Virus record (IMG/VR): IMGVR_UViG_3300024310_000024
Location: 1-30,552 of that record
From: a virus
Lineage: Duplodnaviria; Caudoviricetes
Direction: 5' to 3' (one strand)
DNA length: 30,552 bases
Shown here: positions 3,390 to 25,623 of the stretch, one piece after another
Layout: every line of letters begins with the position of its first letter
Numbering within the stretch: position 1 is the stretch's first letter
Made by a program: the position numbers and the translations under genes
The notes under the pieces: model-generated
The model's database searches: none
Told to the model about the DNA's origin: nothing
Seen by the model: only the letters and a program-made list of their open reading frames with translations

Positions 3390-4733
3390 CTAATATGAAA
3401 GACCTACCCCATACCCCAAACGTTGAAGATCCGGCAGTTGCTTCTTCAATCGGCCCGCTCCAATGTCTGTTCTGTAGAAAGGAGAATTGGGGATCTTTAC
3501 CTTCTTTATCGCACTGTAAGCACTGCGGCGAGCACCTGTTATCGTGTCGCCCAAGCCCGTTGCAATCAATACGTAATCGCCAGCAGTCACAGGACCCGGT
3601 AGCTCGACTACTTTCCCGTTTATTTCCCTGGGCGCGTCGCCGATCATGACTTCCGAGAAGTGAAGATGCTCCATATCTTCTGCATTGTAAATCGGTATGC
3701 CGCAAAGTTCCTTGTTCGTTATTTTCGAGTAAGGAAAGTCGGGCAGCGCCATCAGGACGGAGATGGAGACTACATCGGTCTTCACCTTCAGCGTGTCGCG
3801 CCCGTTCACAAGGTCGAGCATCCATTGGGCCTGATCACCCTCGATCAATGCGGTAAGGTTGTGGCGGATCGGCCAGCCGTCACGCATCGTCCACTCAAGC
3901 GGATAGGGGGTTCCATCGTGCGTTATCATGCAGTTCACATCAACGTAGCCGACGTACCCCACGCGATGGAGATGATCTGTAGCCGGCTTGAGTACCTGGT
4001 CAGCCAGTTTCGACTTCTTCACGACGCGCACAGTAGTGCCCATCTCGCCCGTATTAACGCCGAGATCGCCGTTCATCAGTTTCTTGTTCTCCCAGTTCTC
4101 AACCCATCCTGCTTTGGACCATCCAGCAGGCCCGAACCACCCGCCCACAGCCATTTCCATCCCGTCAATCTTCTCCTGGAGAATAAATCCGTCTTCTTTG
4201 GCCGATTTGACGTATTTCGGGACTGTTTTCCAGCGCTGAAGCATGTAGACCAGATCCGCCGCCGAGTTCGCAACATAGGACATTGCCCGCTCGCCGTCAC
4301 CGGACGGCTTGGAGACAAACGCTTTACCCTGCTTTTTTACGTAGGCGATAGCTGAATCGTAGTCGTGGAACGTCTTGCCATCGATGCACGGCATCCCACA
4401 ATCTTCCATGACCTTTTGGCCTACCTCGCGGTCCAGTTCCCATTCGACGGCATCGAGATTGCAGCCGAAGATCGGATAACCGATGCGCCGGAAGGGCTCT
4501 AGCAGGTCGAGGTAGTGCGTGTTGTCGGGCGTGTAGATGAGATCCGCCCATCCGATCCACTTCTTGCGAAGCTCGTTGAAGTCGCGGATCTTTGTAACGA
4601 ACCCTTCGCCCGCGTGGCGGTCGGTACCATCAGGACGCGGTTTGTCGTACCAGCGCACTTCATGGCCCTGCATCTGCCAGCGCATGCACAGGTCAAGCGC
4701 GTTGGAGCCAACGTCAATCACTAGTATTTTCAT
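3390..4733 (-). CDS. PurD (GARS)-like ATP-grasp ligase, divergent
   Basis: MKILVID start, GYPIFG..AVEWELDR, ILQEKIDGME, KKLMNGDLGVNTGEMG, LEWTMRDGWP and YRTDIG parallel PurD motifs. The PurD GGREH motif is missing. Start taken at ATG 4733. Confidence 0.85.
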   Translation of the reverse strand: MKILVIDVGSNALDLCMRWQMQGHEVRWYDKPRPDGTDRHAGEGFVTKIRDFNELRKKWIGWADLIYTPDNTHYLDLLEPFRRIGYPIFGCNLDAVEWELDREVGQKVMEDCGMPCIDGKTFHDYDSAIAYVKKQGKAFVSKPSGDGERAMSYVANSAADLVYMLQRWKTVPKYVKSAKEDGFILQEKIDGMEMAVGGWFGPAGWSKAGWVENWENKKLMNGDLGVNTGEMGTTVRVVKKSKLADQVLKPATDHLHRVGYVGYVDVNCMITHDGTPYPLEWTMRDGWPIRHNLTALIEGDQAQWMLDLVNGRDTLKVKTDVVSISVLMALPDFPYSKITNKELCGIPIYNAEDMEHLHFSEVMIGDAPREINGKVVELPGPVTAGDYVLIATGLGDTITGARRSAYSAIKKVKIPNSPFYRTDIGAGRLKKQLPDLQRLGYGVGLSY

Positions 4734-4752
4734 TTTGCATCTGCTATAGTGG
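4722..4752 (+). promoter_or_regulatory. Repeated phage promoter, copy 1
   Basis: TAGTAT-17 bp-TATAGT with an extended TG. Core TTTTGCAnYTGCTATAGTG is shared with the copies near 26970 and 27740. Confidence 0.65.
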
Positions 4753-4775
4753 TCGTAACAACCTGGGAGATCACC

Positions 4776-5021
4776 ATGAAACTCATCGCAATCGTAGCAC
4801 TGTTCGCCTGCACTTCCGCGCACGCCGTCTGCCTTGGCTCCTATCAGCAATGCAACGCTCAAACGCAACAGTATTACGGGCAGACATATCAGCAGTATGA
4901 GCAGAACCAGCAACAGCAGTGGAACCGCCCGCCGCTTCCGCCTCAACAATACCAGTACGAACCGCCCATGAACCAGAACGGCTTCGATCGGTACGGTCAC
5001 TATCACGCGGCAGGGTACTGA
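4776..5021 (+). CDS. Secreted Q/Y/N-rich small protein (moron-like)
   Basis: GGGAGA RBS; Sec signal MKLIAIVALFACTSAHA; mature part has a Cys pair and is Gln/Tyr-rich. Confidence 0.75.
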   Translation: MKLIAIVALFACTSAHAVCLGSYQQCNAQTQQYYGQTYQQYEQNQQQQWNRPPLPPQQYQYEPPMNQNGFDRYGHYHAAGY

Positions 5022-9661: not shown

Positions 9662-9943
9662 TTACTCCTTGGCGATATCCGGATCTGCTACCGCTTCCGA
9701 GTGAATGCAGAGCCAGATGATATCCGTTACCGCGTAGATCCGATGTTTTTTTCCGGCCTTGATTTCTAGCATGCAGGGGGCCTGTAGGGTCTGCAATTCG
9801 CTGTCTACCTCCACCGTGGCGATACCTCTAGCCAGGTAGCTTAAATGGTCGTAGTCGTGGACGTGCTTCTCAACTTCCTGTCCTGCGTCCAGCGTCTGTT
9901 CGCGCGCGTACACACCGCCAGCTGAAAAGTGGTGCAGGATCAT
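9662..9943 (-). CDS. Cupin-fold protein
   Basis: HHFSAGGVYARE, HVHDYDH and AGKKH metal-binding cupin pattern. Start 9943 from the ATGA overlap. Confidence 0.8.
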   Translation of the reverse strand: MILHHFSAGGVYAREQTLDAGQEVEKHVHDYDHLSYLARGIATVEVDSELQTLQAPCMLEIKAGKKHRIYAVTDIIWLCIHSEAVADPDIAKE

Positions 9944-10506
9944 TTCTCGCACCTGACCGAAATAATCAGGCTGATCCGGTCATCCGGCCCGTCGTTTACG
10001 ACTTCATGCTCCTTCGTGTTATCGAAGTACCACGCCTCGCCGGGGGCCATCGCTACCTGTTCATCCTCCACCCGATTAATGCAATGGGGATTCCCCTGGA
10101 GTACCACATACAGTTTGGTATTGTAATGGTGAACATGCCAGCCATCGTCAGTATGTGGCAAGATACGCCCGCCCGGCGGCACGCGGGTAATCAGGATGCC
10201 GCCGAGTCGAGTTCCTTCCACGCGCGCCATCATGCCGAACACAATCGGCCTAGCCTGCGGCAGCGCATACCACTCCGGGTAAAACACAGGGTCGTGGGGC
10301 CCATGAAAACCCGACCAGTCGCCTTTTTCCTTGAACGGCTTCTCATCGTTGTATCGCAGCCAGATATCCGAAGACCCTTTGTGAGGGCTGTTCTCGTACC
10401 CTTCTTTTCTGTAATCGTGCCGGTTCCACAACTTCGGCTGTCTCGCGATAGCCAGAAGCAAGGGCGCCGTGTCGATCCCCGCTGCGATCTTTACCATGTT
10501 TCTCAT
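9940..10506 (-). CDS. Aspartyl/asparaginyl beta-hydroxylase-like 2OG-Fe(II) dioxygenase
   Basis: ITRVPPGGRILPHTD (HxD) and WYFDNTKEHEVVN..DDRISLII (distal His and 2OG-binding Arg). Confidence 0.85.
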   Translation of the reverse strand: MRNMVKIAAGIDTAPLLLAIARQPKLWNRHDYRKEGYENSPHKGSSDIWLRYNDEKPFKEKGDWSGFHGPHDPVFYPEWYALPQARPIVFGMMARVEGTRLGGILITRVPPGGRILPHTDDGWHVHHYNTKLYVVLQGNPHCINRVEDEQVAMAPGEAWYFDNTKEHEVVNDGPDDRISLIISVRCEK

Positions 10507-15890: not shown

Positions 15891-17312
15891 TTACGGTGTG
15901 GTCACAGTGCCGGCAGTATAACCCGGCGTGAACGCCGAGCCAGCCTCAACACGGGCCAAAAACGCCTGGTTAAGGATAATACTCCCGTAAAAGACTTTCC
16001 ATGATACGACGCGCGTCTGGTTGAGCGGATCGCTCTTGTCAGCGCCTGTCAGGTAGTGGAACTCGGGGTTCTCCAGCAGGACCTGGCCGTACGAGTGGTT
16101 ACCAATGAAGATCGTCGGGAACACGCTCACGCCCGTTGCCGGTGCTGCCGGCGGCGTCTGCGCGACACCGATACCCGTCAGCGTAACCGTCTGGTTCGGC
16201 AGCAACTGCGTAGCCTGACCGGCCAGCGGGCCCGTAACAGGAACGCCGTTACCGATTGCCGTTGCCAGATTCGACGGCGTGGCCGACGTGCCGATGTACA
16301 CGTTAAACACGTAGTTCGGCACGTTCGGGATCACAACCGAGATGGAACCCGTGGGGCCCGTCACGCTGATCGCGTTCGACACCTGATAGATGATCTGTTC
16401 GACCGACGTTTGCGCAGGCGAAGCCGTCACAATGATCTGGTAGCCGGCGTTCGTTGCCAGCGTGCCGCCCGAAGCGGACGCCGTACCCTGGATGGCGGCT
16501 GCGCCCGTCCAGTAGGGCATCATGTTCGATTCAACGAATCGCGCGCCGTTGAACGGGCCCAGTTCGTTGTTGTACAGGCGGTTCACGTCGCTGTACGACC
16601 ATGCGTTCACAACCGTCGTGTTCTCGCGCATGTCCTGCGCCGACAGCGGGTGGATGAGCGCGATGTAGTGTTGCATGACAGCGGGCGACTTCGACGGATC
16701 GCGATACGCGCCCGCTTCGATCATCATGTCTTCGCGTTCGTCGCCCATGAAGCGCGGGACGCCGTACGTGAGGAACGAACCGACGATGCGGTTCGTCTCA
16801 TGCGGCGTCATCACGTCGGTTGCCAGCAGGTTCGCGCGCGAGGCCTTGCCGTTCGCGTAGTTCACCTGAGTCGTGGCGAGAAGCGTGTTGAACGTGTTGC
16901 GTTCCAGCGTTTCCGGCAGTTGCAGCGCGACCAGTTCGCAGGCTTGCTGGAACAGCGGATGCTTGATGGTCAGGTTCGCCACGTCGGTGATGATAACGCG
17001 GTCGCCCCATTGCTGTGCCGTGGCCGAAACCTGTTGCAGCGTCATCGCTTCGCCGGGAGGCGCTACGCCTTCCTGCAACGGCGCGAACGGCAGCGGCAGA
17101 CGCTGATAGCGCGAAGCCGTGTACGTCGTGCCACGATTCGTGTCCAGCTTCAGCGGTTTGCCGAACTGGTACGCGACCAGCTGGCGGCGTGCCAGCGGCT
17201 CGACTTCTTCCTGAATGTACGCTTCAACGTCCGCCGTAAAGCTGGTGGACTGGTTGGTAACGCCCGGGAACAGCGAGGCCCACAAGAGGCCCAATTTTTT
17301 GAGGTGTCGCAT
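15891..17312 (-). CDS. Major capsid protein (N4-gp56-like, HK97 fold)
   Basis: YQFG, PLQEGVAP, QQWGDRVIITD, ELGPFNGARFVES and DKSDPLNQTRVVSWK. Start at ATG 17312 with GAGG RBS. Confidence 0.88.
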   Translation of the reverse strand: MRHLKKLGLLWASLFPGVTNQSTSFTADVEAYIQEEVEPLARRQLVAYQFGKPLKLDTNRGTTYTASRYQRLPLPFAPLQEGVAPPGEAMTLQQVSATAQQWGDRVIITDVANLTIKHPLFQQACELVALQLPETLERNTFNTLLATTQVNYANGKASRANLLATDVMTPHETNRIVGSFLTYGVPRFMGDEREDMMIEAGAYRDPSKSPAVMQHYIALIHPLSAQDMRENTTVVNAWSYSDVNRLYNNELGPFNGARFVESNMMPYWTGAAAIQGTASASGGTLATNAGYQIIVTASPAQTSVEQIIYQVSNAISVTGPTGSISVVIPNVPNYVFNVYIGTSATPSNLATAIGNGVPVTGPLAGQATQLLPNQTVTLTGIGVAQTPPAAPATGVSVFPTIFIGNHSYGQVLLENPEFHYLTGADKSDPLNQTRVVSWKVFYGSIILNQAFLARVEAGSAFTPGYTAGTVTTP

Positions 17313-17328
17313 GGTTTCCTCTTCGTGG

Positions 17329-18048
17329 TTAAATATTCTGATTCGCGAGACGCTCGCGACGCTTGTCCTGATCTGAGCGCCCCGAACGTGCCGGTACATC
17401 ACTGCGAACTCCTGCCGACTTCCCGCGCGGCACTGCCGGTGCGGACGACTTGGGCTTTGCCTTAAGCTTGCCCTCAGCAATGTCCTTACCGAGCATCCAG
17501 TAGTACACATCCTCGCGTGAGGCCTGCTGACCGCGTGAACGTGCCTTCTGTACTTCTTCTTCCACCCGCTCCGTGTACTTCGCGCGGCGCGGTTCGCTCG
17601 CGATCTTCGATTCGAAGCGCGCGCGATCCGACATGTCTTGTGCCTGGAACATCGCCTGCTGCGCCTGGCGTTGCGTGTCGCGCAGCGTGCGATTGGCCTG
17701 AATCTGCCAGCGTTCCATCTCCGTCGTGTCCGAACTGCGCAGGCGTTCTTCCTCGCGCTGGTACTCCGCGTCTACGGGCGCAGGCTGACTCGAAAGGCGC
17801 GCTTCCGCTGCAAGGCGCCCACGGCGTTCGACTTCAGCTTCCAGACGAGCCAGACGCTCAGCAGAATCATCGCGGCGCGATGCGGCCCGTGCAGGAGGAT
17901 CGTCAGGCAGGTCATCAGCAGGCAGATCCAGATCAATATCATCATCGGGATCAGATGCAGGCAGGTCATCAGGTAGGGGATCATCGTCCGTTTCTCCGTC
18001 AATCCCCGGAAAAAGAAGGCCTAAGAGTTTTTTAAGCAGCTTGTTCAC
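17329..18048 (-). CDS. Capsid scaffolding protein
   Basis: Acidic disordered N-terminus, coiled-coil middle and basic C-terminal tail, immediately upstream of the capsid gene; GTG start with AAGGA RBS. Confidence 0.75.
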   Translation of the reverse strand: MNKLLKKLLGLLFPGIDGETDDDPLPDDLPASDPDDDIDLDLPADDLPDDPPARAASRRDDSAERLARLEAEVERRGRLAAEARLSSQPAPVDAEYQREEERLRSSDTTEMERWQIQANRTLRDTQRQAQQAMFQAQDMSDRARFESKIASEPRRAKYTERVEEEVQKARSRGQQASREDVYYWMLGKDIAEGKLKAKPKSSAPAVPRGKSAGVRSDVPARSGRSDQDKRRERLANQNI

Positions 18049-18057
18049 TTGGGTTCC

Positions 18058-18573
18058 TTAGTTCGCAGTGCCCGAACCGACGTTCTGGAGCGTCGCGGTA
18101 GGCGAGGCGCCAACTGCGGTGATCGTCACGGTGAAGTCGCGCCACACTGCGGTAGCGATGGTCGCCGTGCCGCTGATCGTCCAACCGGTAGCCGTCGTCA
18201 TCGTAACGGTTTGCGATGTCTTGTTGAGCACGCGAAGGCTGACCGAAGATCCAACCACGGCTTGCTGCGGGGTAAGCGTTGCGAGAAGGACAGCAACCGT
18301 GGGGAGCGTCAGTGCGACGCCCGCGCCAGCAGTGCCCGTCAGATCGAGGTAGGTTTGCTCCGCCCCCATGATCTGCGATTGCGTTGCTGTAAAGCTGGCG
18401 GTATTCGTCGCGTTGTTGTAGACAGTTGCCTGCCACGGGTTGATCGCGAGAATCGCGTTGATGAGGCCGGTCTGGTCTGCCAGTGCGCCGAGCATCGGCA
18501 CAATGTTAGGGGTTTGCCCCTGCACAGACGGGAAAAGCGCGCCGATCAGGGCGCTAAGACGGGTTTTTCGCAT
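18058..18573 (-). CDS. Head decoration/minor capsid-like protein
   Basis: 171 aa, Thr/Ala-rich and beta-like (LTLPT motif). Start ATG 18573 with AGGGG RBS. Confidence 0.65.
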   Translation of the reverse strand: MRKTRLSALIGALFPSVQGQTPNIVPMLGALADQTGLINAILAINPWQATVYNNATNTASFTATQSQIMGAEQTYLDLTGTAGAGVALTLPTVAVLLATLTPQQAVVGSSVSLRVLNKTSQTVTMTTATGWTISGTATIATAVWRDFTVTITAVGASPTATLQNVGSGTAN

Positions 18574-18600
18574 GGTATTCCCCTGATTAGGCTTTCGCCG

Positions 18601-18629
18601 GTTATATAGCGTTTGTTTCAAAAAGTCAA
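18601..18629 (-). promoter_or_regulatory. Sigma70-type internal promoter for head genes
   Basis: Minus strand TTGACT (18629-18624), 17 bp, TATAAC (18606-18601), followed by a GGC-GAAA-GCC mini-hairpin and the RBS. Confidence 0.7.
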
Positions 18630-19906
18630 CGTACGCGCCGCGCGCGGATCAATCCGTCCACGGTAAGCGTGCTGGTCGTGAAAACCATGATGCTTACCAG
18701 AAATACCGTCGTAGTGGATGCGAGGCTCAATCTCACAGCTGGCGTGGGGTTAGCAGCGCCATTTCCGGCAGCGAAAGTTATAGTCAGATTGCTGAATGTG
18801 CCGAACGCTCCCACCGTTGCCGAAGTCGTACTGATACCTTCCAGCTGTTGTTGAATCACCGTGGTCCCTGCAGGGTTAGATCTGACTATCCCCGTCACGT
18901 CCCAGTCCCCGGCGGTAAGGGAGATGCTGGTTACGTTGAAAGCAGCCCCCGACGACGCGGAAACTGCTGTGGCCGTTGCTGTGACGAATTCGCCCACGCT
19001 GCCGGCGTTCGCGTTGTCATTCGTTGTCGTTCCTACAATACCGTTCGTGCTGGACGGCGTGAACGTGCCCGTGCTGCTTAGTGTGGTGAACGCGCCGGTA
19101 CTCGCCGCCGTGTTACCGATAGGACCGGGCGACGCGAAGCGCGCGGTGAAGCCCGCACCGCTCACTGCACCACTGGCGGCCAGTGTCGTAAATGAGCCGG
19201 TGCCGGGCGTCGTCGCGCCGATGTTCGTGCTGTTGATGCCGCTTGAAGCGGTGAGCGTGGTGAACGCGCCCGTGGAAGGTGTCGTCGCGCCGACAGCCGT
19301 GCTGTTAATGCCACCCGTCGCGCTGAACCCGCCTGTATGCGCCCACGCGCCCGTGCCGCTGTTCGACGTGATGCCGCTGATGCCTGCTGCCTGGCCCCCG
19401 GTGATTGTGAAGGCGTTCACAGAAGCGCCGAACGCATCGTTGGCAAAGCCGAATGCCAGAACCGTCGAACCCCATGTGATGAACGCGTTCTTATTGTTCG
19501 CGCTGCGGATCGAGTCGATGAACTGGACGGTAGGGTTCGGGCTGTTGTAAATCTGCGTACCCGTGACGGTAACCGCCGGGATCGCGCCGCCGCTTGCGAA
19601 CAGACTGGTGCCCGTCACGGTGGTCGGCGTTGTGGCGCCGATGGGCGTATTGTTTATCGTGCCGCCCGTGATGGCAACGCCCGACATCGTGCCGGAAGTC
19701 GCATGCACCGCTGCCACGGTCGGGTTCGGGTACGTTCCGGACAGGTCACCGCCCGCCGCACCCTGCGGCCCTGCCGCCACGATGGTGTTCAGTGCTAATG
19801 TCGTCTGCTGCGCGAGCGAGTTGATACCGGCCTGCACTTCTTCAGGCGGCACATCGGTGCCCGCGCTGCGCACCTTGTAAGGCGTAATCAGGAACTGGTC
19901 AGCCAT
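18626..19906 (-). CDS. Fibre-like virion protein with internal repeats
   Basis: 426 aa, T/G/A-rich; AGGDLSGTYPNPTV motif and about four INxTxIGATTPxTGxFTTL-type repeats. Confidence 0.75.
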   Translation of the reverse strand: MADQFLITPYKVRSAGTDVPPEEVQAGINSLAQQTTLALNTIVAAGPQGAAGGDLSGTYPNPTVAAVHATSGTMSGVAITGGTINNTPIGATTPTTVTGTSLFASGGAIPAVTVTGTQIYNSPNPTVQFIDSIRSANNKNAFITWGSTVLAFGFANDAFGASVNAFTITGGQAAGISGITSNSGTGAWAHTGGFSATGGINSTAVGATTPSTGAFTTLTASSGINSTNIGATTPGTGSFTTLAASGAVSGAGFTARFASPGPIGNTAASTGAFTTLSSTGTFTPSSTNGIVGTTTNDNANAGSVGEFVTATATAVSASSGAAFNVTSISLTAGDWDVTGIVRSNPAGTTVIQQQLEGISTTSATVGAFGTFSNLTITFAAGNGAANPTPAVRLSLASTTTVFLVSIMVFTTSTLTVDGLIRARRVR

Positions 19907-20234
19907 GGAGTGCCCTTAACCGTTTGCTTATCGAGGGGCGCCCGCCGGGGCAGTGCGTCAGGAGATACGTGACAAGTCCCGGCCCGTAGCCGCACGCCTT
20001 CGCGTACTGATCTGCCTCAAACTCCTGCGCCTCACACATCGCGAAGAACGCTTCCGTGCGGAAGAACGCGCGCAGCGTCACCATCCACAGAATCCGGGTG
20101 CGCACATGCTTATGGTGCAGGTGTCCCCTCTCGTGCGCCAGCACTGCGTTCTGTTCGAACGCCGACAGGGAGTCGAACTGACTCCCGGTCTGTATTGTGC
20201 CCCATGGCGTGACTCGCGCGCAGAAGTCTTTCAT
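19899..20234 (-). CDS. Miniature HExxH zinc metallopeptidase (M48/M56-like motif)
   Basis: EQNAVLAHERGHL followed by QEFEADQYA, matching the HExxH plus ExxAD pattern; ATGA-coupled to the portal gene. Confidence 0.7.
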   Translation of the reverse strand: MKDFCARVTPWGTIQTGSQFDSLSAFEQNAVLAHERGHLHHKHVRTRILWMVTLRAFFRTEAFFAMCEAQEFEADQYAKACGYGPGLVTYLLTHCPGGRPSISKRLRALHG

Positions 20235-22414
20235 CGTGGCCCCATCTGCGGATCTTGCACGACATCCGGATGAATCATCCCGGCAGGGCCTTGCGGACGC
20301 GGCTGACCGGGTTGCGCGCCGGGGCGCGGTGTTCCGGCCACGCCTGGCGCCGCGCCGCCGGGTACTCCTGGCTGGCCTTGCGGTGCGCCTAACTGCTTCT
20401 GCATCTTCTGGTTCATGGCTTGCTGGTGCGCCTGTATGTGCGCGCGGAAGAGGCCCTGCGGATCGCCCGTCAGCTGCGCGCCGCGCATATGCTCCGCGAT
20501 GTGCCGCTGGTCGTCGTCCGCCGGGTGGACTTCCGCCGGCATGCCGTTGTGCATCATCAGGTTTTCGTCTGACGGCTCGACGTGGAACAGGTTTCGCTCA
20601 TCGATCAGAATGCGCGGTCCGACTTCCGGCCCGAAGATCTGTTCCGTGCCCATCTCCAGAATCGGGCCGACATTCAGACGTCTGCCGTCCAGTTGCTGCG
20701 GCGGGATGCCGCGCAGCACGTTCATCCACGCAATCATCTGCTGCATGCGCTGCATGCCCGTCTGGTAAGCCGTGCCGCACCAGCGGAAGAAGTACCGCTC
20801 GTTGAACGCCTGAACGGGAATCTCTTCCTGCTTCGCCCGCGCGCCGACTTCACCCATTGTCACGACGGTCAGTTCCTTCGTGCGGAACTGGCGGTCAAGT
20901 TCGAACATGCGCTCCAGCAGCGGATTCAGGATGCAGCCTTCGTACCGTTTGGCGTGGTCGATGATGTTCGACTGCTGTTCCTGCGCCTGCGCGGCGGCCT
21001 GCGCCTGGTTCTTCCGGCCTGGCGGCATCTTGCCGAGCATGGCGTCGTTGACTTCCATCGATTCCTGAATCTGCGCTTTGATGGAGTTGCAAAGCGCGAT
21101 GGAGTCTTTGTAGATGGCCGGGAACTGCGCGAACTGCGTCTTCTGCGGATCGGTCAACCACACGGCGGCGAGGCCCATCACCATGGACTGGTAATTGGGG
21201 TTCGCAAGCGGGTCCGTCATCACGATAGGAAGAAGTGCGTACTGCGCACTGTCCATTCCCATGTTATAGAAGTCGTTGATATTCCACTGCAAATACTTTA
21301 CCGGTTCGATTCGTGAGATGCCATAAATCGTTCCTTGGATACGCTCCACAGGCGCCGTGATGATCGGGCGTTTCTTAGACCAAAATGGATTGCGAATAAT
21401 GCCAAGAATGACTTCAGGGCCTGCATAGTAGACGAAGACCGGTTCTTTGCCCTTGCCTTCCTCCAGCTCCAGATTCGTGTGAACTTCATAGATTAGGGCG
21501 TACTTGTACGTGCCTTCCGTACGCACGCCGGCATCTGCCGTGCGGCGCTTGTTCGGGACTCTCTTCTGACGACCGCCGTCCGGTTCGTTCAGATTGTCCA
21601 TGATTTCTTTCGCGTTCCAGCCGACGAAGACGCCCTCATCGATAAATTGCTGGACGGACTCTTTCGACAGACGCAGCCGTACCGCCGTGGCGGTTGCGCG
21701 CTCAATGTCATTCACGGTAGGCGGGTACACCACCAGATCATCCACCGCCATCGGGGTGATGTCCGGCATCTCATCAACTACTTCCGTTTCCTCGACATCC
21801 CACTCTTCTTCGACCGTGGTGTCTTCAACGTCTTCACCAACTACCGTTTCCACGATAGGCGGCTTTTTGACGAGTTCCGTCACGCGGCGCGTGGTGCGCA
21901 TCCAGTCCACGTACAGAAGCCACTGGCCGGTCACGTCGCCCGAAAGCAGATCCGCACGTACGATATCCTTCAGATTCGTCTTGCGGATGTAATGCTCCAG
22001 GAGCGCGAGCGTAGGAAACGGCGTGACTTCCGCCGGACCCACCGCGTCCACGTGCTTGTAGTTAGCGGGAAAGAGCGTCGATAGCGTGCGCTTGCACCGC
22101 GCATTGATGCAATCTCTGACTACTGGAACATAACACTGCGAATTTCCGGTATACTGCTGGTTCTCGTCCGGAATTGCGTTGTAGATATTCCAGGCTTCCT
22201 CTACGCGGTCCGACTGCTGCTGTTTGTTCTCGTACCCCTTCTGAATCTTCGGGTACAGCTTGCAGGCCTCGATATAGGCGTCGCTGCCCATGTCTTCCGC
22301 CCAGTTCTCGACTTCTTCATCCAGGCGCTCAGCGTCGATAGCCCGGCTATCGACTGTTTCGATGACGGGCTTTTCTTCCTCTTTCTTCTCTTTTTTTACG
22401 GCTTTCCGGGCCAT
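20231..22414 (-). CDS. Portal protein (P22-like)
   Basis: About 727 aa between terminase and head genes; IYGISRIEPVKYLQ..N pattern and Q/P/G-rich C-terminal tail. Start taken at MARKAV (22414). Confidence 0.85.
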   Translation of the reverse strand: MARKAVKKEKKEEEKPVIETVDSRAIDAERLDEEVENWAEDMGSDAYIEACKLYPKIQKGYENKQQQSDRVEEAWNIYNAIPDENQQYTGNSQCYVPVVRDCINARCKRTLSTLFPANYKHVDAVGPAEVTPFPTLALLEHYIRKTNLKDIVRADLLSGDVTGQWLLYVDWMRTTRRVTELVKKPPIVETVVGEDVEDTTVEEEWDVEETEVVDEMPDITPMAVDDLVVYPPTVNDIERATATAVRLRLSKESVQQFIDEGVFVGWNAKEIMDNLNEPDGGRQKRVPNKRRTADAGVRTEGTYKYALIYEVHTNLELEEGKGKEPVFVYYAGPEVILGIIRNPFWSKKRPIITAPVERIQGTIYGISRIEPVKYLQWNINDFYNMGMDSAQYALLPIVMTDPLANPNYQSMVMGLAAVWLTDPQKTQFAQFPAIYKDSIALCNSIKAQIQESMEVNDAMLGKMPPGRKNQAQAAAQAQEQQSNIIDHAKRYEGCILNPLLERMFELDRQFRTKELTVVTMGEVGARAKQEEIPVQAFNERYFFRWCGTAYQTGMQRMQQMIAWMNVLRGIPPQQLDGRRLNVGPILEMGTEQIFGPEVGPRILIDERNLFHVEPSDENLMMHNGMPAEVHPADDDQRHIAEHMRGAQLTGDPQGLFRAHIQAHQQAMNQKMQKQLGAPQGQPGVPGGAAPGVAGTPRPGAQPGQPRPQGPAGMIHPDVVQDPQMGPR

Positions 22415-22935
22415 GTTCGGTTGCCTTTTTTCGCGTTCCATGCCGCCGGCAGGATCGACAGATTAGTCTGGACGTGCAATCCGCACACCTGCTTTGATTG
22501 AAGCGGTACGACGTGATCGACCTGAAACGGCGTGCCGAGTTCTTCTGTCAGAAATCGCGCGATCAGATAGTACTGGTCGATTGCCTTGCTATCCGCCCAT
22601 GCGGGTGTAGCCTGAAGGCGTAGCGCCTTACGGCGTGAAGTCTTCGCGTTTATCTTGTGGACGTTTTTCTTAGCCCACTTCCTACCGCCCGCCGCAACAC
22701 ATTCTTTCGACTTTTCAGGGTTCTTTTCAACCCATCTGCGCTTCGTAGCCAGCGCACGTTCTTTGTTCGCCGTAGCCCAAGCCTTGTCGTAAGCCGCTCT
22801 TTTCGCGCGATTCTTTTCGCGCCAAGCCAGATGATACGCTGCCTTGCAATCAAGACACCGCGTATCTACTTTTCCGTCGCGTAAAGGGAAAGCAGCGAAT
22901 TCTTTCTCTACCGCGCAGCATCGACAGACTTTCAT
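22396..22935 (-). CDS. HNH homing endonuclease
   Basis: N-terminal CxxC..CxxC, ATPAWAD and VDHVVPLQSKQVCGLHVQTNL..NAKKGN. Confidence 0.9.
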   Translation of the reverse strand: MKVCRCCAVEKEFAAFPLRDGKVDTRCLDCKAAYHLAWREKNRAKRAAYDKAWATANKERALATKRRWVEKNPEKSKECVAAGGRKWAKKNVHKINAKTSRRKALRLQATPAWADSKAIDQYYLIARFLTEELGTPFQVDHVVPLQSKQVCGLHVQTNLSILPAAWNAKKGNRTWPGKP

Positions 22936-23619: not shown

Positions 23620-25623
23620 TCATCTCCGGGGGAGTGAAGTGAAATAGGTTGCACCCTGCGGATTAGTAGCAGAAGACAGGTCTTCCGGCAAGGTGTTTTG
23701 ACGCGATGTTAGCACAAATACTGCCGACTCCAGCCCCTCCAGCAATGTGCGGTGCGCGCCGCGCTCAGGCTCCGCCGCGAGTTGCCCCGTCTTGCTGACG
23801 GGATAGCAGTAGCCGCCGGCGAGAGCGTTCAACGTCTGCCGCGCGTTGCTATCGACCAGCAACAGGCGCTTGCCCTTCATCTCCGTGCGGATCATGGGCG
23901 ACAGCGCGCCGCGCGCCATGCTCGGATACGCTCCGCGCATCGGGTTCATCTTCGCTGTACGCAAGGCGGTCATCAGCGGCATGCGGTCCGCCTGGTCCGC
24001 CACGTCGCCCGGAATCCAGCAGGTCAGTCTTGCTCGCGGGAAAGCTGCGCGTACAAGTTGCAGCACGTCCGGTACAGCCTGTGCTGGCACGACTGGCGAA
24101 ATCCAGTCGGCAACCACGGCGAGGCGCTCACCTTCAACAGAAACAAGCACCGCCGTAGTCTCCGCCCCGTTCGCGTTGAAGCAGAGCGCCATTGCATCGC
24201 GGGCAGTAGGTTCATAGCCGTCGATGATGTTGTAGCTGCCGAAGTCTTCATAAACAGGAACTCCTGAGAACACACGCTGCGCGTACGCCAGCGCGTTAAG
24301 GATGTCGCGCTTGCCGGAAGGGAAGTTCAGTATTTCCGCGACCAGCTGCGCGTGCTGCCCGCGTCCGCCTACCAGTACCACGTCCCCGGCTTCGAAGAAC
24401 GGCTGGAGGCCCATGATGAACTGTTCTTTCGACCGGTCCTGCGGGGCCTGGATCGCCTTCAGCGGCAGGCTGACCCCGCGCCGCAACATCTCCGCGCGCA
24501 TTGGCTGGAGCAACCACTCGTCAAGCGAGTTCTTTTCAATCGCGACGTTCGCGTCATCAAACCGGCGCGACGTGTCGAATGCATCCGCGATTATCTGGTC
24601 GGGCTTCCAGTACTCGCCGGAACTTGCGTGCACGTAGATACGGGTTCCGAGACGAGAGAGCACAACACGGCCAGTGCGATCAGAGGAAGTAACACTTGCG
24701 GTGCGAGCAGGATCGACCACAAGCGTTTTAGGAAGCCATGGGGCGGGGTCCAGTGCGATTTCACGGATATGCTCACTTTCAAAAGGTTTATCCTGACTGC
24801 CGATCGCCATCAGCATCAGTTCCTGCAAAAATCCCCGGAGCTGCCCTGCCTTCTCGTACCGGTCGCGCTCCTTCCGGATCCAGTCCATCGGGAAGCGTTC
24901 CGGCCAGAGCGCCTCCGTCGTCGGGTCATCGATATCCCCGTTGCAGATCGGAAAGCGTAACGTCGTCCACTGGTCGTCCGCGCGCAGCCGCGACACAAGG
25001 CAGTCTTCCGCCAGCGGGGTCTGTGTGACCCGCACCTTGCGCTTCTCCTTGTCCATTGCGGGGATCAGCTGGAGATACAGCTTGCGCAAGGTGGCGTCCA
25101 CTGCCGCCTTGTCCTTCACCATCGTTTCGTTCTCGATGTCGTCCAGGTACGCTCTATCCGGGCGCCAGTCGTGCCACTTGAAGCCCCGTAGCTCCTCCTC
25201 CCACCCGTGCGCCTCCAGCAGGACGCCGTTCGGCAGCTCGAACTGGTGCTCGTTCCACAGGCGCCCGCGATGCCCCGTCAGTTTCCCGAAGAGCGTCAGC
25301 AGCTTCATGTTCTTCGCGGCTTCGTTCTTGATCGCCTCCAGCCGCTGGCACGCCTTCGTGTACGTCTCGCCGATGATGAGACAGTAGTTGAAGTTGGCGA
25401 AGCATGCCTCCATCAGCAGATGCTCTTCCGAGAGGGTGGACTTCGCAGCGCTCCGGAACGCCTCGATCAGTACCAGCTCGTCTGCACTTCGCCACGCGTC
25501 CATGATCCGCACGTGGAACGGAGGACTGGCCTGCGGATGCCGGTGCGGGAAGAGCATCGCGCTTGCGAGCGCCCGGTCTTCCGAGATGACGCGCAGCGTG
25601 GCCGCGCTTGTGAGTCCTGTCAC
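23620..25623 (-). CDS. terL: Terminase large subunit with C-terminal extension
   Basis: Walker A-like AFRSAAKST, Walker B YLDDIE, coupling motif QTP, ALWPERF, nuclease motifs VVDPA, IEKN and FPSGKRDILNALAYA. Confidence 0.9.
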   Translation of the reverse strand: MTGLTSAATLRVISEDRALASAMLFPHRHPQASPPFHVRIMDAWRSADELVLIEAFRSAAKSTLSEEHLLMEACFANFNYCLIIGETYTKACQRLEAIKNEAAKNMKLLTLFGKLTGHRGRLWNEHQFELPNGVLLEAHGWEEELRGFKWHDWRPDRAYLDDIENETMVKDKAAVDATLRKLYLQLIPAMDKEKRKVRVTQTPLAEDCLVSRLRADDQWTTLRFPICNGDIDDPTTEALWPERFPMDWIRKERDRYEKAGQLRGFLQELMLMAIGSQDKPFESEHIREIALDPAPWLPKTLVVDPARTASVTSSDRTGRVVLSRLGTRIYVHASSGEYWKPDQIIADAFDTSRRFDDANVAIEKNSLDEWLLQPMRAEMLRRGVSLPLKAIQAPQDRSKEQFIMGLQPFFEAGDVVLVGGRGQHAQLVAEILNFPSGKRDILNALAYAQRVFSGVPVYEDFGSYNIIDGYEPTARDAMALCFNANGAETTAVLVSVEGERLAVVADWISPVVPAQAVPDVLQLVRAAFPRARLTCWIPGDVADQADRMPLMTALRTAKMNPMRGAYPSMARGALSPMIRTEMKGKRLLLVDSNARQTLNALAGGYCYPVSKTGQLAAEPERGAHRTLLEGLESAVFVLTSRQNTLPEDLSSATNPQGATYFTSLPRR

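What the first reader, a model, noticed from the sequence alone, without database searches (positions are those of the whole stretch)
17259..20234. Shared LFP[GS][VI] N-terminal leader on three consecutive head proteins, near a miniature HExxH protease: candidate leader-processing system
Seen: three consecutive, otherwise dissimilar genes begin with the same kind of 16-18 aa basic amphipathic peptide. The decoration-like protein starts MRKTRLSALIGALFPSVQG (18573), the scaffold MNKLLKKLLGLLFPGIDG (18048) and the capsid MRHLKKLGLLWASLFPGVTNQ (17312). Two genes upstream of them, coupled to the portal, is a 111-aa ORF with HExxH and ExxAD motifs. No HK97-type prohead protease is visible in the window. 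Established: in staphylococcal phage 80alpha, scaffold and capsid share an N-terminal motif removed by the host Prp protease that processes ribosomal protein L27. Inference: this is an analogous but different tag, cut by the phage metallopeptidase or a host enzyme, or used to co-target head proteins to a membrane or assembly site. I do not recognise it as a described system.
Basis: partly seen in the sequence, partly recalled or inferred. Interest (0 to 1): 0.85.

Follow-up and report, generated by a model that had tools for sequence, protein, structure and literature searches.

The report
Clip-off leaders and mini zinc protease
Three head proteins of this Burkholderia-type phage begin with the same short leader peptide, and relatives with such leaders also carry a tiny zinc-protease gene that likely cuts them off, which would be an undescribed, metal-dependent way of maturing phage heads.

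Summary
Observation confirmed. LFP[GS][VI] occurs exactly three times in the window's six frames, at the starts of the spike-like, scaffold and N4-gp56 capsid genes. The 111-aa portal-coupled gene is a minimal M48 peptidase. In relatives the tag generalises to basic-hydrophobic helix, then [FYL]-h-x-[PL]-x|[VILA], on up to five proteins per phage. Among 176 capsid-retrieved loci spanning portal to capsid, 135 have leader plus M48, 39 have neither, 2 have a different capsid-only extension without M48, none has M48 alone. Leaderless relatives begin about where the leader ends, which places the likely cut before V/I. Caveats: leader and peptidase form one clade, so this is one gain; two covariation tests did not discriminate; co-folding gave only weak support (0.54, best control 0.01); cleavage is unshown. 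Best reading (0.68): a phage-encoded M48 protease removes the leaders. It works like 80alpha/Prp and T4 gp21 but belongs to neither; nine literature searches found no description. This scan noted the same system earlier on other genomes (e1-3503806, e1-6086545, e1-6086544, e1-3414634); those notes are not independent evidence.

The parts
20231..22441 (-). Portal protein; no leader; its stop overlaps the peptidase start
   Evidence: PHROG portal/head-tail hits E 3e-10, 2.5e-9; sequence
19899..20234 (-). 111-aa minimal M48 zinc peptidase (HExxH 34-38, E71, D75, R105); predicted leader-processing enzyme
   Evidence: Pfam PF01435 E 2e-6, over cut-off; Ste24p best solved hit; fold of a relative matches ZMPSTE24; residues invariant in 73 of 73 aligned homologues
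18626..19906 (-). Fibre-like protein between peptidase and leader genes; no leader
   Evidence: phrog_11393 tail fibre E 1.3e-10; sequence
18058..18573 (-). Spike/decoration-like protein, 171 aa, with leader
   Evidence: AlphaFold model: N-terminal helix 2-13, C-terminal beta domain; best Foldseek hit Pa223 capsid spike, E 2.1e-4, TM 0.37, a weak match
18526..18573 (-). Leader 1 (16 codons; predicted cut after S16, before V17)
   Evidence: register with leaderless paralogues
17329..18048 (-). Scaffold-like protein, 239 aa (acidic N-part, basic C-tail, directly before capsid), with leader
   Evidence: position and composition; no family hit, so the name is inferred
18004..18048 (-). Leader 2 (15 codons; predicted cut after G15, before I16)
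15891..17312 (-). N4-gp56 family major capsid protein, 473 aa, with leader
   Evidence: TIGR04387 E 2.5e-40; phrog_1357
17262..17312 (-). Leader 3 (17 codons; predicted cut after G17, before V18)

Best explanation
The capsid, scaffold and spike-like proteins each begin with a shared 15-17 residue basic-hydrophobic leader, and the 111-residue M48-type zinc peptidase encoded next to the portal likely cuts it off just before the V/I. Shown: the leader, its conservation, the peptidase's family and intact metal-binding residues, and their joint presence in relatives. Inferred: that the leader is removed; that the cut falls before the hydrophobic residue and recreates the N-terminus that leaderless relatives make directly; that this enzyme does it. 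More speculative: before cleavage the leader gathers the precursors (on the inner face of the cell membrane or on each other), and because a spike-like, probably external protein is also tagged, the enzyme would act on precursors outside a closed prohead rather than only inside it.
For: (1) Co-occurrence: 176 capsid-retrieved loci spanning portal end to capsid: 135 leader+M48, 39 neither, 2 other extension without M48, 0 M48 alone; 30/32/2 after clustering at 95%. Whole records: one M48 in 20 of 20 leader records (11 of them found through the capsid, 9 through the peptidase), 0 of 17 others, 15 of these complete. Reverse: of 71 new loci found with the peptidase profile, 60 reach a capsid gene and all 60 show a leader by eye. 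(2) A matrix trained on 58 capsid leaders scores the scaffold start at 8 bits or more in 34 of 39 leader loci and 0 of 30 leaderless loci; P2 class (P or L) agrees between capsid and scaffold in 37 of 39, one site set by hand. (3) Register: 79 of 80 sister capsids (one cut by the contig end) start with Met at or within a few residues of the leader's end; the residue matching P1 is Met in 43 of 62 leaderless capsids; P1' is V/L/I/A in 58 of 58 leader capsids but A/G/P/T in 59 of 62 leaderless ones; some spike-family copies lack the leader and start in register with P1'; a 96-nt in-frame insertion in one capsid leader keeps the terminal LFPG-V. (4) HExxH in 42 of 42 and the ExxAD pattern in 41 of 42 peptidases, down to 20% pairwise identity; fold match to ZMPSTE24 Z 10.4, rmsd 2.2 A, 106 aligned. 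(5) No S78, Prp or ClpP in 5 near-complete relatives. (6) Co-folding of peptidase + Zn + capsid residues 1-36: weak support, score 0.54, best of 3 controls 0.01, contacts agree at least 79%, partner pLDDT at least 58; the mark was reached by 116 of 157 solved and 2 of 215 mismatched pairs, but at 0.60 or under by only 18 of the 157 and by both mismatches.
Against: Leader and peptidase map to one clade (SH-aLRT 97, quick tree of 88 rows): one gain, so any two genes of that clade co-occur; the spike family is also confined to it. P/L leader type needs 4 changes on both the peptidase and the capsid tree, so it does not track the enzyme better than the capsid. L084 and L092 carry capsid-only extensions without M48 (L084 only 57% complete), so extensions can exist without this enzyme. 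The window's subclade has R-P where most relatives have H/Y-P before the last helix; from recall that His/Tyr stabilises the transition state in related enzymes. 9 of 471 ORF starts in leaderless loci also score 8 bits or more, mostly signal-peptide-like. In 80alpha, blocking cleavage of capsid or scaffold left phage viable (PMC5744158), so a cut need not be essential. No proteomics or activity data exist here; no cultured phage matched the peptidase.
Confidence: 0.68

Rival explanations
1. The leader is removed by a host protease (as Prp does for 80alpha; in Proteobacteria a candidate would be a leader-trimming enzyme such as TldD/E or HtpX, names recalled), and the phage M48 has another job.
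For: Precedent in 80alpha. Other N4-gp56 capsids carry Prp-type or other leaders. L084 and L092 have extensions with no M48. Within-phage agreement of leader type would also follow from a shared host enzyme.
Against: Prp found in 0 of 61 genomes of the host family and a host L27 has no extension. M48 never found without the leader or the clade's leader without M48 in spanning loci. Host proteomes were not scanned for the motif, so other host enzymes are untested.
Confidence: 0.12
2. The leader is not cut: it is a permanent amphipathic handle that co-localises head proteins on the membrane, a chaperone or each other.
For: Helical, basic, amphipathic on scaffold and capsid. In 80alpha the intact scaffold N-terminus is needed while cleavage is not. 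T4 proheads assemble on the inner membrane (PMC9026906).
Against: Does not explain the conserved P/L-x-V/I end, its exact register with ancestral starts, or the constant company of an intact peptidase.
Confidence: 0.12
3. The leaders are Sec signal peptides cut by host signal peptidase.
For: Basic start plus hydrophobic core; true signal-peptide-like starts are the main false positives of the leader matrix.
Against: From established knowledge (recalled): signal peptidase I wants small residues at -1 and -3, here -3 is often F and -2 P; no lipobox Cys; cores are short and contain Lys; exporting capsid and scaffold is incompatible with cytoplasmic head assembly.
Confidence: 0.05
4. The shared motif is chance, a DNA/RNA element or a mis-called start.
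For: The ORF caller gives other starts for two of the three genes.
Against: Three of three motif hits at N-termini; low DNA identity; synonymous variation; present in all 120 listed capsid homologues by eye (best 120 of 2106) and on scaffolds.
Confidence: 0.02

Closest known systems
Staphylococcus phage 80alpha capsid/scaffold leaders cut by host Prp (PMC5744158, PMC9405229; passages read)
   Same: Short shared N-terminal motif of similar length (13-14 residues) on scaffold and capsid, and on other non-homologous virion proteins in related phages
   Different: Enzyme there is a host cysteine protease that also matures L27, motif LQFF|A; here Prp is not found in the host family, the motif differs and the candidate enzyme is a phage-encoded zinc peptidase
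T4 gp21 prohead protease and capsid-targeting sequences (PMC9026906; passages read)
   Same: Phage-encoded protease gene beside the portal; shared short propeptides on several unrelated head proteins, removed at a short consensus
   Different: gp21 is a serine protease cutting after L/I-X-E inside a membrane-bound prohead; here the enzyme is M48 and the predicted cut is before a hydrophobic residue
Peptidase family M48 (Ste24p/ZMPSTE24, HtpX, BepA)
   Same: HExxH, ExxAD, late Arg; best sequence and fold matches
   Different: Only 108-160 residues, lacking the multi-pass membrane barrel; phage-encoded in a head module
Uncharacterised zincin-like metallopeptidase of group 1 jumbo phages (PMC7824862; passages read)
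   Same: A metallopeptidase proposed, without test, to act in virion maturation
   Different: Different phages; no shared leader or M48 assignment in the passages read; not compared by sequence here

Membership tests
Peptidase M48 | Profile match over the curated cut-off | tested here: met
   PF01435 28.2 bits vs cut-off 20.3, E 2e-6; below HtpX equivalog cut-offs
Peptidase M48 | HExxH plus downstream Glu in ExxAD | tested here: met
   Invariant in 73 of 73 and 24 of 24 diverged sequences (H, E, H, E, D)
Peptidase M48 | Catalytic-domain fold | tested here: met
   Model of a 48%-identical relative (pLDDT 94.7): ZMPSTE24 Z 10.4, rmsd 2.2, 106 aligned; next four hits also M48/M56. Z is under the tool's caution level for helical proteins, so it counts together with the sequence hits
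Peptidase M48 | His/Tyr before the Pro of the last motif (recalled as transition-state stabiliser) | tested here: inconclusive
   H or Y in most relatives, R in the window's subclade
Peptidase M48 | Zinc-dependent proteolytic activity | not testable with these tools
   needs an assay
Prp-dependent processing (80alpha type) | Prp (PF04327) in host or phage | tested here: not met
   0 of 61 host-family genomes, 0 of 5 phage records; control rang in 3 of 14
Prp-dependent processing (80alpha type) | Motif LQ(F/L)F|A shared with a long L27 | tested here: not met
   Motif differs; L27 of one host genome has no extension
HK97-type (S78) or ClpP-type prohead protease | S78 or ClpP gene in the phage | tested here: not met
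   0 of 5 near-complete relatives each; controls rang
T4 gp21 type (S77) | S77 gene in the phage | tested here: inconclusive
   0 of 5, but the control rang nowhere
Prohead maturation proteases (functional class) | Cleaves head-protein precursors during assembly | not testable with these tools
   comparative support only

The most novel reading that the evidence does not exclude
A self-contained tag-and-clip system: a roughly 110-residue stand-alone M48 zinc protease and a portable leader that the phage adds to or drops from individual virion proteins (up to five per genome), used to gather capsid, scaffold and spikes at the membrane and release them by cleavage. It would be a metalloprotease class of phage head-maturation enzyme and among the smallest M48 enzymes with a defined substrate.
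Probability: 0.4. Interest if true: 0.87.

Novelty: new variant of a known kind. Interest (0 to 1): 0.72.

Why it matters
The characterised phage head-processing enzymes in the papers read are serine (T4 gp21 and kin) or cysteine (Prp) proteases. A zinc protease in this role would add a catalytic class, in a large group of uncultured phages and Burkholderia/Paraburkholderia prophages (2106 capsid homologues). It also gives a very small M48 enzyme with a predicted natural site, a handy model for the Ste24/HtpX family, and a clean system to ask why several head proteins share a removable tag, which is still open for 80alpha (PMC5744158). Prohead protease activity can trigger CBASS defence (PMC12991175, passages read), so a switch of protease class may matter for immunity; that link is speculation.

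Tried and rejected
Covariation of leader type with the peptidase tree: no discrimination (4 changes on each tree). Suspected homology between the spike-like protein and a signal-peptide-bearing gene of leaderless L086: not supported (hhalign probability 0.3%). Portal scan of genome contigs gave only one locus. No cultured phage matched the peptidase; cultured capsid matches were under 30% identity, and the three inspected (L081-L083) show no leader or HExxH gene in the genes printed. The first peptidase alignment had wrong coordinates and was replaced. Automatic leader calling failed on 8 loci, which were dropped (7 leader-type, 1 leaderless), and mis-called L446, L450, L086, L154, L164, set by hand. 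L324 and L364/L365 have leaders but their loci do not reach the portal and their records were not held: uninformative. A wide structure search for the spike model was not run. Host proteomes were not scanned for the motif. Literature searches gave no description of an M48 head protease or this motif; the library lacks most subscription papers and no supplements were read. Prepilin-peptidase and lipoprotein signals were rejected from recall (hydrophobic stretch precedes the site; no Cys).
Full report
Setting. The window is a 30.6-kb virus record, about 80% complete. On the minus strand lie terminase, an endonuclease, portal, the 111-aa ORF, a fibre-like gene, a 171-aa gene, a scaffold-like gene and an N4-gp56 major capsid gene. 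Named relatives are prophages of Burkholderia and Paraburkholderia.

Observation. LFP[GS][VI] occurs three times in six frames, each at one of these starts; the leaders share 16-20 of 39 bases and vary synonymously in relatives. The 171-aa protein folds as a leader helix plus a beta domain whose best match is the Pa223 capsid spike (E 2.1e-4, TM 0.37), weak support for a spike.

The leader in relatives. All 120 listed capsid homologues (best of 2106) show such an extension by eye. In 58 capsid leaders (95% clusters), counted back from a conserved Asn: P5 F/L/Y/S, P4 mostly L/F, P2 P (35) or L (23), P1 G (47), P1' V/L/I/A (58). A matrix trained only on these scores scaffold starts at 8 bits or more in 34 of 39 leader loci (median 13.9) and 0 of 30 leaderless loci (median -19.4); background was 9 of 471 other ORF starts in leaderless loci, mostly signal-peptide-like. 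Capsid and scaffold agree in P2 class in 37 of 39 phages. Diverged members tag up to five genes between portal and capsid, for example L247 and L312, or four in L306. Portal and genes before it do not score (0 of 219).

Where the cut would fall. Sister capsids near 50% identity start M-[AP]-[VT]-N or close variants at the leader's end (79 of 80, one truncated). The position matching P1 is Met in 43 of 62 leaderless capsids, and P1' is A/G/P/T in 59 of 62; L450 has the leader placed in front of an intact M-A-T-N. Within the leader clade some spike-family copies lack the leader and begin in register with P1' (L317, L300, L324 against L321, L315). A 96-nt in-frame insertion in the capsid leader of L009 and L011 keeps the terminal LFPG-V. 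Two leaderless capsids start M-G-V/I-T-N (L384, L387), which would also fit a cut one residue earlier. A preference for hydrophobic P1' is typical of thermolysin-like zinc peptidases (recalled).

The peptidase. It passes the Pfam M48 cut-off; its profile's best solved match is Ste24p (E 3.1e-5). A model of the L024 homologue (pLDDT 94.7) matches ZMPSTE24 at Z 10.4, rmsd 2.2 A over 106 residues, followed by Ste24p, Q74D82, BlaR1 and BepA; Foldseek ranks the same enzymes first but without E under 0.001. Zinc ligands and catalytic Glu are kept down to 20% identity. The window's subclade lacks the His/Tyr most relatives have before the last Pro.

Co-occurrence. Using only loci retrieved with capsid queries and spanning portal end to capsid: 135 leader+M48, 39 neither, 2 other extension without M48, 0 M48 alone, of 176; 30/32/2 at 95% and 4/12/1 at 75% clustering (8 loci dropped and 5 set by hand). 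Whole records: 20 of 20 leader records hold one M48 (9 chosen through it), 0 of 17 others (same result with a narrower profile). Of 71 new loci found with the peptidase profile (from the best 80 of 119), 60 reach a capsid and all have a leader. The match starts within 150 nt of the portal end in 23 of 39 and further downstream in the rest. However, a quick tree of 88 of 122 representative capsids puts all leader capsids in one clade (SH-aLRT 97): one gain with no loss seen, not many independent events. Leader type tracks peptidase and capsid trees equally. L084 and L092, outside the clade, have capsid-only extensions of another form and no M48.

Other enzymes. No S78, Prp or ClpP in 5 near-complete relatives; S77 inconclusive. 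No Prp in 61 host-family genomes; one host L27 is short. Co-folding of peptidase, zinc and capsid 1-36 gave weak support: 0.54 against best control 0.01, contacts agreeing at least 79%, partner pLDDT at least 58; the mark was reached by 116 of 157 solved and 2 of 215 mismatched pairs, at 0.60 or under by 18 of 157 and both mismatches; a ZMPSTE24-peptide structure exists, so memory may contribute.

Mechanism. Most likely (0.68) the mini-M48 removes the leaders before V/I. Shown: leader, conservation, enzyme family, linkage. Inferred: cleavage, site, enzyme identity. Speculative: membrane gathering before the cut. Rivals: host protease (0.12), uncut handle (0.12), signal peptide (0.05), artefact (0.02).

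Known systems. 80alpha: shared scaffold/capsid motif cut by host Prp; cleavage dispensable, intact scaffold N-terminus needed (PMC5744158, passages; PMC9405229, passages). T4: serine protease gp21, shared capsid-targeting propeptides, membrane assembly (PMC9026906, passages). A zincin was proposed, untested, for jumbo-phage maturation (PMC7824862, passages). Passages of bioRxiv 2025.05.26.655371, PMC8776804, PMC12002296 and PMC12991175 describe no such system. Nine searches found none; supplements were not read and most subscription papers are outside the library. It works like these systems but is a member of neither.

Earlier notes. My reading was set before the look-up. The scan noted this system on other genomes and similar leaders paired with cysteine peptidases in other phage groups; these are unchecked AI notes, not support.

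Verdict. Real, conserved and apparently undescribed; a new variant of head-protein processing with a probable metalloprotease. Interest 0.72.

Noticed in passing
L009:3433-3645, L011:5089-5300: 96-nt in-frame insertion inside the capsid leader of near-identical relatives, tripling its length but keeping the terminal motif; origin unknown.
   Followed up: partly
L084:7905-8000 and L092:7944-8003: Capsid-only N-terminal extensions of other form in phages without M48; in L084 it sits between the same start context as leaderless L085 and the ancestral N-terminus.
   Followed up: partly
proteins P0153, P0158, P0160, P0168, P0197, P0202, P0255, P0260, P0279: Distant N4-gp56 capsids carry other leader types (Prp-like LNLxLF; P-x-x-A-G-G-A; long hydrophobic), suggesting leaders were gained repeatedly on this capsid family.
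   Followed up: no
L318:13299, L366:13044, L391:17536: Genes downstream of the capsid that also start with the phage's own leader type (3.8-9.9 bits): possible further substrates.
   Followed up: no
L324:1953-2960: Gene in the head region with a Cys motif that looks by eye like a papain-type peptidase, in a leader-bearing phage whose M48 status is unknown.
   Followed up: no
L121:3968, L155:5644, L101:4981, L086:3845: Leaderless sister phages have small head-module genes with classical signal-peptide-like starts.
   Followed up: partly
window 3390-5006 (-), 9940-10506 (-), 9662-9952 (-): GARS-like ATP-grasp gene and an aspartyl/asparaginyl beta-hydroxylase-like cupin with a small neighbour, after the virion genes: possible modification enzymes.
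   Followed up: no
window 23620-25623 (-) and 22396-22935 (-): Large terminase has about 220 C-terminal residues beyond the family match; an endonuclease VII/HNH-like gene lies between terminase and portal.
   Followed up: no
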